Positions 2,304-18,363 of a stretch of DNA of 29,416 nt are shown piece after piece (the stretch's first letter is position 1; each line of letters opens with the position of its first letter). The DNA comes from Alphaproteobacteria bacterium. GTDB lineage: Bacteria; Pseudomonadota; Alphaproteobacteria; JABAAW01. The notes below the pieces were generated by a model that had not been told where the DNA came from, did no database searches, and worked only from the letters and a program-made list of their open reading frames with translations. The stretch is from positions 1-29,416 of the forward strand of contig JABAAS010000002.1 of assembly GCA_014238625.1 (NCBI GenBank), in the 5' to 3' direction. The position numbers were made by a program, and so were the translations under genes.

Positions 2304-2432
2304 TGCAACTTTTAAAGAAAATTTTGTAAAATAGTGCAATCTTTATCAAAAAAAAGCCCATGAATTAGCCCAAACTGCAAAGATTAAAGAAAAAAATAGC
2401 CCGTTTACTGCAATGTTTAAAGAAATTTTACA
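2304..2432 (-). mobile_element. Tn7-like transposon-end array no. 1 (four 17-bp boxes, terminal TGT on minus strand)
   Basis: TGCAA-initiated boxes at 2304, 2335, 2376 and 2409 (spacings 31/41/33); the last abuts ttttACA at 2432. The minus strand reads TGTAAAA-TTTCTTTAAACATTGCA. Same layout as the 12947 array, and 69 bp from tniQ. Confidence 0.55.
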
Positions 2433-2500
2433 AATCACATGGAACGATTCTCGCTTATGGACTGAGGGATAAGCGAAATATTCTCCAAGGGAAATATATA

Positions 2501-3769
2501 GTGAAATCTATGTGGTTGGTGCGTCCCTTACCGCTCGAAGGCGAGAGTATATACTCTATACTGTTGCGGATGAGCCTCGGCAACGATATCTCCACGCAAG
2601 AGGCTTGCTGCGTTTTATTCGGAACGAGGCAAGTCGGCGACCTCGATAAACTCTCGCCATTCTATGCCCTGCCCATAAGCGAAGCCGCTGATCTGACAGA
2701 AAAACAAACCCTAGCTCTAACCTGCTATCAATGGGATGGGCTGATAACCCCTAGTATGCCAGAAAGTAGCCACAGCCTAGATTGGTTACCAGCTCTGCCT
2801 TCACGCAAGGGTGAAGTGCTACCGCTCGCATAACCGCGCTGTCCCCTATGTCTCGATGAAGGGAACCTACCCTACGCACGCATTAATCACCGATTAGCCT
2901 TCATCGTCTGCTGTCCAAAGCATAAAGTCTTTCTCATAAGTAAATGCCACGCTTGTGGCAACCATCTACCCTTCCCAAACGCAGAGCCTTTTCTATGCTC
3001 ATCATGTGGTAAAGACCAAAGAGACTATCTCAACACAACTCCGCAAGCTTTCATCGAAGCGCAAGAAAAACTCTTGAGCATACTCGAGCGCGGGTGGGTG
3101 AACTCCGAGTATTACGGCGCGCAATACTCATTCGTCTTCTTCCGTCTGCTAATCTGGCTCTGTCGAATGCTAACATCTAAAAGCTGGGGGAAAACTCTGC
3201 GCCAAGCTATACGCAAAGCCTGCGGACCGCAAAGCAATGTCGAAGAAAACACATTCTGGTATCGTGGTAACGAGCGAATATACCAGCTCTCGTCATTAGA
3301 ACGGGCAAAGCTGGTATCATCAGCTCTATGGCTGTGGGGCGACTGGCCGCGCCGTTTCATTGATGTATGCCGCAGCGTCAATCTCTTCAGTCATACCATC
3401 CTATCATATGGGCGCAATCCTCCATTTCTATTGCTAGACCCGGTGCGAGAGGCACTTCTCAAGCCCTTTTATGCGTTCTCTGCGGCGGAAGTTAACTCTG
3501 CGAAGGATTACCTACATAAGCGCGGGAGAAGGGTAACCTTGACCGAATTGCAGGCTCTCACTGGTAATAAACTACACGCTTGGAGCAACGCAGGCTATGC
3601 AGGGCGGAGGATATGTATCCCTTATGGAGAATCTCGTTATTGGAAGCTCGACGGTATCAATAGCCGAGTGCGAGCCAATGTCAAAGCGCAAGCTCATATC
3701 GAAGGTTTGAAGACAGCTCAATGGGTCGAGCGGGCTCTAGAGCAGGCATTACAAAAAAACTGTGGATAA
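2501..3769 (+). pseudogene. tniQ: TniQ/TnsD-family target-selection protein interrupted by one in-frame TAA (2831-2833)
   Basis: ORFs 2501-2833 and 3074-3769 are in the same frame. The gap translates without further stops as PRCPLCLDEGNLPYARINHRLAFIVCCPKHKVFLISKCHACG, the TniQ Cys/His zinc-binding region. The N-terminus WLVRPLPLEGESIYSILLRM is the TniQ start motif. Confidence 0.88.
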
Positions 3770-3863
3770 AATAGCCATTCTACCAATTTTGACTTAACTT
3801 TGGGTGACATTAGGTAGCTATTCCATTGCATACTCGCCTTACTGTTGCATGGAGGTGTCTCTT

Positions 3864-16100: not shown

Positions 16101-18072
16101 GTTTTTCTTGCAAATCGCTTTCACTATCGCTCACTCGCGCAATGATCCCGCCGTTCAAGCCTTGCCAAAAAACGACATTGCCGCCGTCGTCTTCCAGCCT
16201 GTTGATGTTTTTCGTGGCGCTGAACCGATAGGTGTCTTCGCCATCGCCGCCTTCGAGGTAGTTCTTGCCTCTACCGCCTGAAAGCGTGTCTTCGCCCGCG
16301 CCGCCGTAGAGATAGTCATCGCCGTCGACGCCGAAGAGCGTATCGTCGTCATCGCCGCCGTAAAGTTCGTCGTTGCCGCTGCTACCTGTGAGTTGGTCTC
16401 TGTCTGCACCGCCGTAGATTATGTCGTCGCCCGTACCGCCATCTATGGTGTCGATGCCCTCGTCGCCGTAGAGGGTGTCGTCTCCATCGCGTCCTCGAAT
16501 GAAGTCCCTGCCCTCACCACCGTAGATCGTATCGTCGCCTGCGTCGCCGTAAAGGGTGTCTCTGCCCGCGCCGCCGTGAATCTCGTCGTCGCCAGAATAC
16601 CCGTAGATGTAGTCGTTACCACCCAAGCCGAAAATCGTGTCATCGAGATTTGAGCCGTGCAGGCTATCGCTGTCATCGCTGCCGACGATACTTCTGCTGC
16701 TTCGTGACTCACTACCGTCATCCGTATCGGACAGCGTTTCGCTCTCTTCCAGCTCCTCGTCTTCGTCAGTGTCTGCATCGGGAAGCGGCAGAGGATCTTC
16801 GCTATTGTCAGGTAGCGTTTCGTCCACACTGCCGAGAGAGAACTCGTTCAGTTTTTCGCCGTTGCCGCCGTAGATTATGTAGTGACTCTCCGCGTTGGCA
16901 GAAGGCTTGATCGTTACAGAATTCTCCCCGAAAGTCAGGACCACATCACCGCTCTCGGCGCGATTGAGGATGATATCAGCAGGATTCGTTGCATGTTTGA
17001 AATACACATAGCCGCCGTCTGCGTCGCCTTCGATCGTGTCCAGACCGCTATCGGCATCGAAGAAGTATTCATCCATACCTGCGCCGCCGACTAGGATGTC
17101 GTCGCCCGCGCCGCCGTAGAGATTGTCTGCACCCGCGCCGCCTTCCAGACGATCGTTGCCCTTGCCGCCAAAAAGGAGGTTTGCTCCTGCGTCCCCTGTA
17201 AGCCAGTCCGCGTGGGCGGAGCCAAAGAGGTGTTCGATATTGACGAGCCTGTCGCCTAACGCCTCGTTGCCGTTGGCATCGAAGCCGTGATTTCCGTCAA
17301 AGTCTCTTTGACTACCTTCTACGGCTAGGCTCACTCTCACGCCTTCCTTGGCGCTTCTGTAGTCTGCGTAGTCTACTCCTTGACCGCCGTCGAGCAGGTC
17401 GGCGCCCCTTCCGCCGTCCAAAAAGTCGTTGCCTTCTCCGCCCAAGAGGATGTCGGCGCCTGCAAAACCATGCAGCTGGTCGTTGCCTGCCCTACCATCT
17501 AGGCGATTGGATCCCGTGTCGCCCCAAAACGAGTCGCTATATTTCGATCCCACTAGGTTCGCTATATCTTTGTAAGTATCTCCTTCAGCAAAACTGCCGT
17601 AGTTGGAAGAAGCCTCTTGCAAGCCGATCTCAACTCGGGCGACGGCACTTTCGTAGCTGACGGTGTTCGTATCTGCGTTACCGACAAAGATATCTGCCTC
17701 TGCGGTCGCAAAAAAAGAGGGCGTGTCTGTGTTTGTCTCTGCCGCCGTAGCCGTCTCGACAACTAAACCGACCTCCGCCGAGCTGATGTCCGACTGAGAT
17801 GGGGGAACCTCTAAGGTCACATCCGAGAGAAGCGGACTGGTCTCCGTCTCAGGAGACGCCGCGGATTTCGCCGAGGAGGGTGCATTGCTGGCGGGTGCTG
17901 ACGCCCTGCCTGCTCCGCTGCTGCATCCCTCTAGGAACACGCCGAGCGCTGTTGCCGAGAGCAACGCTGTCAATGCCCGTGTTTTTCTGTTGCGCTTGCC
18001 TTCGCCTTCGCCCTCGCCGGGGGACGAGAATGCGTTACCGCTTTCTTGGCTGGAGATAGAGTATGAGTTCAT
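13195..18072 (-). CDS. RTX-type calcium-binding repeat protein (RTX3), 1625 aa, with a signal/lipoprotein-like N-terminal leader
   Basis: ATG 18072 has an AAGGA SD. Numerous GGxGxD repeats and repeated IENLxGSxxxDxLxGD modules. Basic RNRKTR plus a hydrophobic stretch ends in LEG-C50. Confidence 0.93.
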   Translation of the reverse strand: MNSYSISSQESGNAFSSPGEGEGEGKRNRKTRALTALLSATALGVFLEGCSSGAGRASAPASNAPSSAKSAASPETETSPLLSDVTLEVPPSQSDISSAEVGLVVETATAAETNTDTPSFFATAEADIFVGNADTNTVSYESAVARVEIGLQEASSNYGSFAEGDTYKDIANLVGSKYSDSFWGDTGSNRLDGRAGNDQLHGFAGADILLGGEGNDFLDGGRGADLLDGGQGVDYADYRSAKEGVRVSLAVEGSQRDFDGNHGFDANGNEALGDRLVNIEHLFGSAHADWLTGDAGANLLFGGKGNDRLEGGAGADNLYGGAGDDILVGGAGMDEYFFDADSGLDTIEGDADGGYVYFKHATNPADIILNRAESGDVVLTFGENSVTIKPSANAESHYIIYGGNGEKLNEFSLGSVDETLPDNSEDPLPLPDADTDEDEELEESETLSDTDDGSESRSSRSIVGSDDSDSLHGSNLDDTIFGLGGNDYIYGYSGDDEIHGGAGRDTLYGDAGDDTIYGGEGRDFIRGRDGDDTLYGDEGIDTIDGGTGDDIIYGGADRDQLTGSSGNDELYGGDDDDTLFGVDGDDYLYGGAGEDTLSGGRGKNYLEGGDGEDTYRFSATKNINRLEDDGGNVVFWQGLNGGIIARVSDSESDLQEKHNDYTGATYTLDRGEGSFDVATLTVTGRDGDTLNVIEFTNDPLSGFNFYLRLVGGDYEEIPTDSFILLSGGEEGSESSPFLATDSGDTFTGSEGRDWASYVGSNEEVSIDLGSSPAAVSGGWAHGDRLEGIRNLIGSRLDDRLRGDGGANTLRGGEGEDYLYGGDGDDRLEGGVNSDQLHGEGGNDFLLGGLSNDRLYGEDGNDRLFGGDGRDTLRGGAGDDALHGGADRDFLYGGAGADYLDGGEGASDFASYSDSEKGVRVSLGRVTGQIDFDGAASNNNDAVGDRLLNIENIRGSAYGDWLRGDQKENFLEGREGDDRLNGGAGDDDLLGGRGSDALYGDEGDDLILAGWDDDNLHGGEGADYLYGGRGADTLYGGTGADTLYGDEGTDTYVFEAYDGTDTVIDNGGKIVFLQGDVNDYAGATYAFSRNDEENSLFVTLTVSKDGHTLNVVEFLNYPSSLYIFSTRDTYGVDTEISVDPLVFPPRGSEGSESNPFLATKGADTFVGSEGADWVSYSESSYAVGVDLGIDPADIARGWSSGDKLMGINNLIGSHGSDKLYGNSADNILRGGQGYDILNGREGADILNGGEGDDGGNTATYHESALGVRVNLLLQGDGQSQQDFDGRHGFSANGNEAVGDVLSEISSIWGSAHDDWLTGDDKIWGPDDPFYNPASHQHVVLNVLYGRGGNDRIEGGAGQDSVNGGEGNDHLYGGDGNDNVRGDEGEDTAYGEAGDDYISGGAGNDILYGGAGNDRIFGGAGADVFDGGQGEDTAAYFDLDEGVRVNLLLQGEGQQDFDGSHGFVANTNGAVGDILANIENLEGSEYDDWLTGDRNDNKLLGKEGADRLEGGAGSDTYIIDIGDGADTIVDDVGDTLTLRFRSANYGNAFIDDDFTESSANFARVGDNLEITLDKDASDAISDKITILDAYDTDPNTGTGFSAFTINIEYGVDGQLSEIANDFWHTLT

Positions 18073-18306
18073 GGTTCCGTTCCTTCAAGAAAATTTTGTT
18101 GCTACAAAGTTTTCTTCTGCCTTGTTATTATCAGAACGATATGTCACTCCACGAAACCATCCGACCTATCGTCTGCTCATACGATGCGGGAGAAAGACGA
18201 CAAGGTCAACCTGTTTTTAGCGAGGTCACAAAAAATTTACCTGTGCCTGTGCGCAAAGGATATATCAAATCTGACAATCGAAAAAACAGCCTAAATTTTG
18301 CCAAAT

Positions 18307-18363
18307 CGCAAAAATTAGTGAAAGAAAGTAGTCGTTTTTTGCAATGTTTAATGACATTTTACA
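18307..18363 (-). mobile_element. Tn7-like end array no. 3 (one clear and one degenerate box)
   Basis: tgcaatgtttaatgacattttACA at 18340-18363. A degenerate box cgcaaaaattagtgaaa lies at 18307, exactly 33 bp upstream as in the other two arrays. Confidence 0.5.

What the first reader, a model, noticed from the sequence alone, without database searches (positions are those of the whole stretch)
2304..18363. Three same-handed Tn7-like ends with diverged box sequences, each upstream of an RTX gene
Seen: arrays ending in TTTTACA at 2432, 12947 and 18363 share a 33-bp spacing between the last two boxes, and their similarity stops at ACA (flanks AATCA, GTAGA, ATTGT). The boxes share a core (TAAACATTGCA, minus strand) but have array-specific 5' halves: TTTCTT, TGACAC, TGTCAT. 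Known: Tn7-family ends are TGT-N4 followed by repeated TnsB sites, and fixed-site targeting can stack elements in tandem. Inference: remains of three related Tn7-like elements with drifted TnsB specificity, each now with an RTX gene just inside the end. Alternative: the 17-bp quasi-palindromic TGCAA-N7-TGTCA boxes are sites for a host activator of minus-strand genes.
Basis: partly seen in the sequence, partly recalled or inferred. Interest (0 to 1): 0.75.

Follow-up and report, generated by a model that had tools for sequence, protein, structure and literature searches.

The report
Stacked Tn7-like transposon left ends
The three repeat arrays are left ends of Tn7-like transposons that piled up one behind another downstream of a tRNA-Thr gene and then decayed, a known kind of genomic island, here in an undescribed family that often lies beside RTX genes.

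Summary
Three arrays of 17-bp TGCAA-N3-TTA boxes end in TTTTACA at 2432, 12947 and 18363. The last two boxes of each start 33 bp apart, and each array lies 290-570 bp upstream of a minus-strand RTX gene. They are Tn7-like left ends. On contig C187 of the same MAG, three contiguous boxes ending in the same TTTTACA lie 37 bp from tRNA-Thr(GGU) and are followed by intact tniQ-tnsA-tnsB-tnsC. A metagenomic relative (L027) has an intact junction: left end, ATTGT, right end, tniQ. The window is a stack of five units, all decayed. Element 2 has broken tniQ, tnsA and tnsB. Two more ends lie at 27367-27423 (left) and 27429-27475 (right). Same-genus genomes carry such ends at the same tRNA. The boxes fall into two flavours rather than three. 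Flavour tracks the TnsB N-terminus: 76% identity within a flavour, about 44% between, while TniQ stays at 84%. That pattern is mosaic exchange, not gradual drift. The RTX link is real but loose. RTX2 sits in its own cassette with 33-bp inverted repeats, and the RTX3 ortholog in a relative lies outside the end. The host-regulator alternative is not supported. This is a new member of a known kind, of moderate interest.

The parts
2..2002 (-). RTX1, N-terminal 667 aa; the gene runs off the contig start. It is the innermost gene at the left end of element 1.
   Evidence: Pfam HemolysinCabind E=4e-79
2304..2432 (+). Left end of element 1 (array 1). Four spaced flavour-A boxes at 2304, 2335, 2376 and 2409, then terminus TTTTACA.
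   Evidence: The terminal 26 nt are identical to the right end on C187 at 13214-13239. Aligns with the left ends of C104 and L027-X.
2432..3766 (+). tniQ pseudogene of element 2. The right end and the first 15 codons are missing, and there is an in-frame stop at 2831-2833.
   Evidence: tblastn gives 85% aa identity to C187 TniQ residues 16-458 in one frame. The ORFs are split at 2833/3074. Nucleotide identity to C187 is 81% over 2432-4555.
3804..4549 (+). tnsA pseudogene of element 2, with a frameshift near 4400-4412.
   Evidence: Pfam Tn7_TnsA-like_N. tblastn finds two frames.
4510..5439 (+). The first ~109 codons of tnsB fused to a helicase C-terminal fragment (AAA_12). The rest of tnsB and all of tnsC are deleted.
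   Evidence: The TnsB N-terminus is 76% identical to L027-Y and 45% to C187.
5419..7191 (-). GmrSD-like cargo gene of element 2, cut near its 5' end by the RTX2 cassette.
   Evidence: Pfam GmrSD_N. Inverted repeats lie at 7212 and 12533.
7212..12533 (.). Nested RTX2 cassette bounded by 33-bp inverted repeats that are 88% complementary. It holds RTX2 (7430-12379, minus strand).
   Evidence: the repeat finder pair I1. Pfam. A related repeat copy lies on C154 at 9940-9963.
12808..12947 (+). Left end of element 2 (array 2). Four spaced flavour-B boxes at 12808, 12839, 12891 and 12924, then TTTTACA.
   Evidence: Homologous to the inverted left end of G003 (L041:3823-3935) and to the decayed left end of L027-Y.
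13195..18072 (-). RTX3, a lipoprotein-type RTX protein. The surrounding block of about 12981-18255 behaves as a unit.
   Evidence: Pfam. The G003 ortholog is 82-89% identical in nucleotides, and that homology stops at window 18255. A decayed repeat copy lies at 12986-13010.
18307..18363 (+). Solo left end of element 3 (array 3). Two flavour-B boxes at 18307 and 18340, then TTTTACA.
   Evidence: It is 77% identical to array 1 over 87 bp.
18364..18368 (+). ATTGT, the att-derived 5-bp spacer between the left end of element 3 and the right end of element 4.
   Evidence: The same ATTGT joins a left end and a right end in L027 at 9775-9779. ATTGT(T), ATTGC and ATTGG precede the right ends in C187, G005 and window 27424.
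18369..18415 (+). Probable decayed right end of element 4: TGTGAAAATTC, with about one box deleted.
   Evidence: Alignment A1. This is weak evidence: the terminus matches 9 of 11 and the boxes about 50%.
18422..26295 (+). Cargo of element 4: an Eco57I-type methyltransferase gene (18422-22939) and a PLD/SNF2 helicase gene (22936-26295).
   Evidence: Pfam. The helicase 3' end is 86% identical to C104, where a flavour-A left end follows it.
27367..27423 (+). Decayed left end of element 4. Boxes at 27367 and 27400, 33 bp apart, with the terminus mutated to CTTTAAA.
   Evidence: 79% identical to 18314-18375. PWM score 18.5. Sequence.
27424..27475 (+). ATTGG spacer, then a solo right-end remnant (element 5) with two contiguous inverted boxes. 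RTX5 (27497-29371, minus strand) follows.
   Evidence: PWM score 20.3 on the minus strand. Aligns with the right ends of C187, L027-Y and G005. The second box matches the middle right-end box of C187 at 16 of 17 positions.

Best explanation
The arrays are left (cargo-side) ends of Tn7-like transposons of one family. The family encodes tniQ-tnsA-tnsB-tnsC just inside the right end and inserts about 35-37 bp downstream of tRNA-Thr(GGU). Each new element lands between the tRNA and the resident element. This produces the chain right...left | ATTGT | right...left, so all left ends point the same way. The window is the distal, older part of such a chain, in five units: element 1 (up to 2432), element 2 (2433-12947), element 3 (12948-18363), element 4 (18364-27423) and a solo right end followed by RTX5. 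The transposition genes have decayed and only ends plus selected cargo remain. The 17-bp boxes are TnsB binding sites: three or four spaced sites in left ends and three contiguous sites in right ends, with TGT/ACA termini. Two box flavours exist. Flavour A is AAAGAAA-like. Flavour B always has T at box position 13, as in GTGTCA, ATGACA and GTGAAA. Flavour goes with the TnsB N-terminal domain, while the TniQ-TnsA homing part stays conserved. I infer, without a test, that unlike flavours can stack because target immunity is flavour-specific. RTX genes are frequent residents of this tRNA-Thr island. Some are cargo and some are separately mobile cassettes, so their position next to left ends is not a regulatory link. 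Shown here: the sequence anatomy, the homologies and the att-site context. Inferred: TnsB binding, immunity escape and the order of insertions.
For: (1) C187 of the same MAG has tRNA-Thr(GGT), then 37 bp, then three contiguous boxes ending TTTTACA, then tniQ, tnsA, tnsB and tnsC with matching Pfam domains. (2) Window 2432-4555 is 81% identical to the tniQ-tnsA stretch of C187 and starts right after array 1. Element 2 therefore reads + from 2432, and array 2 is its tns-distal, left end. (3) L027 (the predicted TniQ P0006 is 86% identical to the C187 TniQ over the 67% of the query it covers; 75% by tblastn over the whole length) has an intact junction: spaced flavour-A array ...TTTCACA | ATTGT | TGTAAAATTTC plus three contiguous flavour-B boxes, then tniQ-tnsABC. 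(4) The same ATTGT and ATTGG spacers, each followed by a right-end remnant, lie at window 18364 and 27424. (5) Same-genus genomes carry ends at the same tRNA. G005 has three contiguous flavour-B boxes 35 bp from tRNA-Thr. G004 has one right-end box and an inverted left end about 10.9 kb apart, with no tns genes. G003 has an inverted three-box left end homologous to array 2. (6) PWM hits of 18 or more fall almost only on C121, C187 and C104. None lies upstream of the RTX genes on C99 or C154. (7) The TnsB N-terminus of element 2 is 76% identical to that of L027-Y (both flavour B) and about 44% to C187 (flavour A). TniQ is 84% and TnsA 77% identical, and the nucleotide homology breaks at the tnsA stop.
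Against: No single complete element with both ends and a matching 5-bp duplication was recovered. The left end of C187 is off its contig, and C187 could not be joined to C121. The flanks of arrays 1 and 2 (AATCA, GTAGA) are not the ATTGT spacer, so these two junctions need an extra deletion or an intra-element insertion. Elements 3 and 4 both have flavour-B left ends, which does not fit a strict immunity-escape rule. The co-variation of box flavour with TnsB rests on three elements only. The right-end remnant of element 4 is weak. TnsB binding was not tested.
Confidence: 0.85

Rival explanations
1. The boxes are operator sites for a host transcription factor that controls the minus-strand RTX genes.
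For: Each array lies 290-570 bp upstream of an RTX start codon. The boxes are weakly palindromic.
Against: The same boxes form the termini next to tniQ and tRNA-Thr in C187, L027 and G005, where no RTX promoter is present. No strong boxes lie upstream of the RTX genes on C99 and C154; for C114 only about 95 bp of upstream DNA is assembled. Every array stops at TGT/ACA. In G003 the array next to the RTX3 ortholog is inverted and farther away. The promoter scan found nothing above chance.
Confidence: 0.03
2. One ancestral module of left end plus RTX gene was copied by segmental duplication inside the island, rather than arriving with three separate transposon insertions.
For: Arrays 1, 3 and 4 share 77-79% identity including the spacer DNA between boxes. 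All have an RTX gene or a remnant in the same relative position. Elements 3 and 5 contain little beyond an RTX gene.
Against: The RTX proteins resemble each other only through their repeats (28-38%) and have different N-termini. Array 2 differs in flavour and aligns instead with ends in G003 and L027-Y. Element 2 has its own tniQ, tnsA and tnsB remains. The ATTGT/ATTGG spacers followed by right-end remnants at the junctions between elements 3/4 and 4/5 are what insertion predicts, not duplication.
Confidence: 0.07
3. The Tn7-like ends are real, but the RTX genes are not their cargo. They arrived later on a separate mobile cassette with its own inverted repeats, or they are native neighbours of the att site. 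On this view the pairing of left ends with RTX genes is secondary. It bears on the RTX part of the finding only and is compatible with the main explanation.
For: RTX2 lies between 33-bp inverted repeats at 7212-7244 and 12501-12533, next to the GmrSD gene it is reported to interrupt. A decayed copy of the repeat lies at 12986-13010, downstream of RTX3. Homology between RTX3 and its G003 ortholog ends at 18255, leaving only 33 + 108 bp of element 3. In G003 that gene lies outside the left end. In G002 and G005 giant RTX genes end next to tRNA-Thr with no tns genes.
Against: L026 (TniQ 66% identical, from a different and more GC-rich organism) carries an RTX gene 2 kb after tnsC, inside the element. 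In G004 an RTX gene lies between the inverted ends. Only two good copies of the repeat bound a cassette. No transposase for the cassette is known.
Confidence: 0.45

Closest known systems
Tn7 of Escherichia coli (TnsABCDE, attTn7 downstream of glmS)
   Same: It shares the TnsA endonuclease, the TnsB DDE transposase, the TnsC AAA+ protein and a TniQ/TnsD-family selector. It shares TGT...ACA termini. The ends are asymmetric in the same way: spaced TnsB sites on the left and contiguous sites on the right, with the right end next to the tns genes and facing the att gene. Insertion is at a fixed distance downstream of a conserved gene. (The Tn7 facts are from my own knowledge and PMC11014353.)
   Different: The gene order is tniQ-tnsA-tnsB-tnsC, with the selector first. 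There is no tnsE. The att site is tRNA-Thr(GGU). The boxes are 17-bp TGCAA-N3-TTA-type, three per right end. TnsB is only distantly related, with weak Pfam rve and Mu-transpos_C hits.
tRNA-homing Tn7-like elements and CASTs (type I-B2 PmcCAST at tRNA-Val; type I-D CyCAST at tRNA-Leu; type V-K)
   Same: They home by protein or guide to a site a few tens of bp downstream of a tRNA gene. CyCAST inserts 30-33 nt downstream of tRNA-Leu (PMC10293859), against 35-37 bp here.
   Different: No cas genes or CRISPR array lie in the C187 element. There is a single 418-459 aa TniQ. The tRNA differs. No paper in the searched library pairs 'Tn7-like' with 'tRNA-Thr'.
Genomic islands built by repeated Tn7-like insertion (attTn7 islands, Parks & Peters 2007, from my own knowledge; Tn6022/AbaR islands in comM, PMC11014353)
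   Same: Several related elements and their remnants share one att site, and cargo is rich in defence genes. Target immunity normally limits a second copy of the same element, so arrays tend to be heterologous or rearranged.
   Different: Here the stack holds five units with two box flavours. TniQ-TnsA is conserved while the TnsB N-terminus and TnsC are swapped. RTX genes are a recurrent resident, which is not mentioned in the cargo survey PMC8649781.

Membership tests
Tn7-like transposons | Core genes tnsB (DDE/Mu-type transposase) and tnsC (AAA+, TniB family) | tested here: met
   C187 has Mu-transpos_C/rve and TniB/AAA_22 hits. The window keeps only the first ~109 codons of tnsB.
Tn7-like transposons | tnsA endonuclease, which gives cut-and-paste transposition | tested here: met
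   Tn7_TnsA-like_N is found in C187 (E=1e-19) and at window 3804-4397 (E=7e-19). The window copy is frameshifted. Catalytic residues were not inspected.
Tn7-like transposons | TniQ/TnsD-family target selector | tested here: met
   PF06527 at E=1e-16 in C187. The window has a pseudogene that is 85% identical.
Tn7-like transposons | Ends with 5'-TGT...ACA-3' termini and multiple TnsB sites, spaced on the left and contiguous on the right | tested here: met
   Left ends have box spacings of 31/41/33, 31/52/33 and 33 bp. Right ends have 20-21 bp spacing in C187, L027-Y and G005.
Tn7-like transposons | 5-bp target-site duplication flanking one element | tested here: inconclusive
   ATTGT lies between left and right ends in L027 and in the window. 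ATTGT(T), ATTGC and ATTGG precede right ends. No single element was seen with both flanks intact, and arrays 1 and 2 have other flanks.
Tn7-like transposons | Site- and orientation-specific insertion next to a conserved gene | tested here: met
   Right ends lie 35-37 bp (16 bp in G004) from the 3' end of tRNA-Thr in C187, G005 and G004, always in the same orientation. G003 has a left end about 400 bp away.
Tn7-like transposons | TnsB binds the boxes; transposition activity; target immunity | not testable with these tools
   This needs a footprint or EMSA and a mating-out or plasmid transposition assay.
CRISPR-associated transposons (CAST) | cas genes and a CRISPR array inside the element | tested here: not met
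   No Cas domains were found among the ten C187 ORFs or the window ORFs. A Cas9-like gene in L027 lies beyond the decayed left end.

The most novel reading that the evidence does not exclude
This family keeps one homing module (TniQ-TnsA, tRNA-Thr) but exchanges the end-recognition module (TnsB N-terminus, TnsC and the box flavour) by recombination. Elements of unlike flavour can then evade each other's target immunity and stack at the same site. Separately, RTX genes travel on their own cassettes with 33-bp inverted repeats that settle beside left ends. That would make the tRNA-Thr island the place where this small-genome genus diversifies its RTX proteins.
Probability: 0.25. Interest if true: 0.6.

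Novelty: new member of a known kind. Interest (0 to 1): 0.4.

Why it matters
This is a natural case of Tn7-like elements stacked five deep at a tRNA-Thr site. One autonomous relative is preserved on C187 and could be tested at the bench. Two end flavours are paired with two TnsB N-termini on an otherwise shared homing module. That pairing bears on how target immunity is evaded and how orthogonal Tn7-type integration systems arise, which is also of use for genome engineering. It also explains why RTX and defence genes cluster at one locus in this genus. None of this changes the known mechanism of Tn7-type transposition.

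Tried and rejected
- The search for related loci with C187 TnsB in genome contigs found no relatives.
- The terminal-box pattern was found in no other genome among 400 of the class.
- A two-box pattern in genome contigs gave 8 hits, all judged chance matches in coding or unrelated DNA. The same approach in metagenome contigs gave 0.
- No exact overlaps between contig ends link C187 to C121 or to the small RTX contigs.
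- Walking upstream in the L027 record (L030, L031) to find the right end of element X reached a tniQ pseudogene whose leader resembles L028/L029 and has no flavour A or B boxes. X may therefore be more than one element.
- Ends of L026, L028 and L029 could not be defined, and the repeat search was swamped by RTX repeats.
- Promoter scans of the regions between left ends and RTX genes found nothing above shuffles.
- Rfam found no family in the window.
- PMC8849592 is not held.
- The idea that the RTX genes are recent duplicates was rejected: they share only repeat-level similarity.

Full report
**1. The observation**

The window is a whole 29.4-kb contig (C121) of a 1.13-Mb, 198-contig MAG that is 64% complete. 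Searches show the three arrays as described.
- Array 1 has boxes at 2304, 2335, 2376 and 2409.
- Array 2 has boxes at 12808, 12839, 12891 and 12924.
- Array 3 has boxes at 18307 and 18340.

Each array ends in TTTTACA, at 2432, 12947 and 18363. The last two boxes of each start 33 bp apart. The pattern TGCAANNNTTANNGNNA hits 7 times, all on the + strand inside the arrays, against 0.08 expected. Each array lies upstream of a minus-strand gene full of RTX nonapeptide repeats.

**2. What the boxes are**

A PWM built from the boxes was run over the whole MAG. Scores of 18 or more fell on C121, C187 and C104, plus three isolated single hits elsewhere.

On C187, three contiguous boxes (20-21 bp apart) end in the same TTTTACA at 13239. 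The terminal 26 nt are identical to array 1. The array lies 37 bp from the 3' end of tRNA-Thr(GGT). Reading inward it is followed by tniQ (PF06527), tnsA (Tn7_TnsA-like_N), tnsB (Mu-transpos_C/rve) and tnsC (TniB), then defence-like cargo, and finally the 3' end of an RTX gene at the contig edge. This is the anatomy of a Tn7-like right end at an att site.

In the window, 2432-4555 is 81% identical to the tniQ-tnsA stretch of C187 and begins right after array 1. Element 2 therefore reads on the + strand from 2432, and array 2 is its tns-distal, left end. Spaced boxes in the window arrays against contiguous boxes next to tniQ match the left/right asymmetry of Tn7.

**3. Proof of stacking**

A metagenomic relative, L027, has an intact junction. 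The predicted TniQ there (P0006) is 86% identical to the C187 protein over the 67% of the query it covers; tblastn over the whole length gives 75%. The junction reads: spaced AAAGAAA-type array ...TGCAATGTATAAAGAAATTTCACA | ATTGT | TGTAAAATTTCAC..., with three contiguous TGACA/TGAAA-type boxes, then tniQ-tnsA-tnsB-tnsC.

The same spacer occurs twice in the window.
- At 18364-18368 (ATTGT) it is followed by TGTGAAAATTC, a weak right-end remnant.
- At 27424-27428 (ATTGG) it follows a decayed copy of array 3 (27367-27423, 79% identical, terminus now CTTTAAA). It is followed by a clear right-end remnant whose second box matches the middle box of C187 at 16 of 17 positions.

Right ends in C187 and G005 are preceded by ATTGT(T) and ATTGC.

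The window therefore reads as follows:
- Element 1: RTX1 and a left end, up to 2432.
- Element 2: 2433-12947.
- Element 3: 12948-18363.
- ATTGT spacer.
- Element 4: 18369-27423, carrying a type IIG-like methyltransferase, a PLD-SNF2 helicase and an EamA gene.
- ATTGG spacer.
- A solo right end, then RTX5.

The tRNA would lie beyond the left edge of the contig.

Decay is widespread. Element 2 has lost about 155 bp of right end. Its tniQ carries a premature stop, its tnsA is frameshifted, and its tnsB stops after about 109 codons, fused to a helicase fragment. Elements 3 and 5 are little more than ends.

**4. Same site in relatives**

Same-genus genomes were checked at the syntenic tRNA-Thr locus.
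- G005 has three contiguous GTGTCA-type boxes 35 bp from the tRNA, followed by a 4975-aa RTX gene and no tns genes.
- G004 has a one-box right end 16 bp from the tRNA and an inverted left end about 10.9 kb away. Between them lie a type III restriction-modification system and an RTX gene, again with no tns genes.
- G003 has an inverted three-box left end homologous to array 2, about 400 bp from the tRNA.
- G002 has a giant RTX gene ending 357 bp from the tRNA and none of these boxes.

**5. Box flavours**

Within single elements the variable half of the box wanders. The right end of L027-Y uses GTGAAA and ATGACA, while its left end uses GTGCCA and TGTCA. Arrays 2 and 3 therefore cannot be told apart as separate specificities.

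Two flavours remain.
- Flavour A never has T at box position 13: AAAGAAA, AAGGAAA, ATCGAAA. It is found in array 1, the C187 right end, C104 and the L027-X left end.
- Flavour B always has T at position 13. It is found in arrays 2, 3 and 4, in L027-Y, and in G003, G004 and G005.

The TnsB N-terminus of element 2 is 76% identical to that of L027-Y (both flavour B). Each is only about 44% identical to C187 (flavour A). In contrast, the TniQ and TnsA of element 2 are 84% and 77% identical to those of C187, and the nucleotide homology stops at the tnsA stop codon. The TnsB of L027-Y is itself a patchwork relative to C187: 45%, 52%, 89% and 61% along its length, and TnsC is 38% identical.

This pattern is module exchange, not slow drift. 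Target immunity depends on TnsB sites and TnsC (PMC11014353), so I infer that unlike flavours can share the att site. The adjacent pairs with legible ends, element 1/element 2 and L027-X/L027-Y, are heterotypic. Elements 3 and 4 both have flavour-B left ends, so the rule is not strict. The co-variation rests on three elements.

**6. The RTX link**

The MAG has eight sizeable RTX loci: C99, C114, four on C121, C154 and C187. There are also fragments on three short contigs (C61, C64, C92). Six of the eight loci lie on contigs with Tn7-like genes. An RTX gene lies inside the L026 element (TniQ 66% identical), and another lies near a left end in L027.

Four observations weaken a tight link.
- The RTX proteins share only repeat-level similarity.
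- RTX2 sits in a 5.3-kb cassette with 33-bp inverted repeats (7212-7244 and 12501-12533) next to the GmrSD cargo gene.
- A decayed copy of the repeat lies downstream of RTX3.
- Homology between RTX3 and its G003 ortholog ends at 18255, and in G003 that gene lies outside the left end.

RTX genes are thus habitual residents of this island, in varying positions. There is no evidence that the boxes regulate them.

**7. Comparison with known systems and verdict**

The system has the parts of Tn7, and I expect it to work the same way. It resembles tRNA-homing Tn7-like elements: CyCAST inserts 30-33 nt downstream of tRNA-Leu (PMC10293859). It also resembles the multi-element islands described for attTn7 and comM.

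The differences are the tniQ-first gene order, the tRNA-Thr att site, the box sequence, and the recurrent RTX neighbours. The att site and the RTX link do not appear in the searched literature. The terminal box was not found in 400 other genomes of the class or in the public contig scans.

I rate it a new member of a known kind. Confidence in the transposon-end reading is about 0.85, and interest is moderate.

Noticed in passing
G000 contig C187 (L001) 904-13239: An apparently intact autonomous element at tRNA-Thr. All four tns ORFs are open. The cargo includes an SNF2 helicase, a radical-SAM-like protein, a HATPase_c_3 protein and a ParB_N-like protein, which may be a defence system.
   Followed up: partly
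G000 contig C154 (L011) 12-19934: A second, distant Tn7-like element (TnsB 38-40% identical) carrying type I and type III restriction-modification systems, with an RTX lipoprotein gene on the far side. Six (A/T)(A/T)TTCCA repeats at about 16085-16190 may be its own end boxes. The type III genes are 72-74% identical to those next to tRNA-Thr in G004.
   Followed up: partly
window 7212-7244 / 12501-12533; C154 9940-9963; window 12986-13010: 33-bp inverted repeats bound a transposase-less RTX2 cassette. Related solo copies lie elsewhere, which suggests a separate non-autonomous mobile element that carries RTX genes.
   Followed up: partly
G000 contig C104 (L002) 205-330: Another flavour-A left end, lacking its terminal box. 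It is preceded by the 3' end of a helicase gene 86% identical to window 26199-26313, so a second copy of the cargo of element 4 exists in the MAG.
   Followed up: partly
L039 (G005) 4328-19252 and L040 (G002) 1-7242: Giant RTX ORFs (4975 aa, and more than 2414 aa) end next to tRNA-Thr in same-genus genomes. Their C-termini are 48-54% identical to that of RTX3.
   Followed up: partly
L027 19796-20948: A Cas9-like gene (HNH_4, RuvC_III) starts just beyond the decayed left end of element Y in the metagenomic relative.
   Followed up: no
L026 16072-16326 and 18841-19076: A ~255-bp direct repeat (82-93% identical) flanks the RTX gene inside the L026 element, which may be a trace of RTX gene insertion or duplication.
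   Followed up: no
L038 8985-9005, L040 about 7420-7470, L026 18600-18720: A recurring GCCGAATCGGTC-like motif lies near island borders and could be the end box of a third Tn7-like flavour.
   Followed up: no
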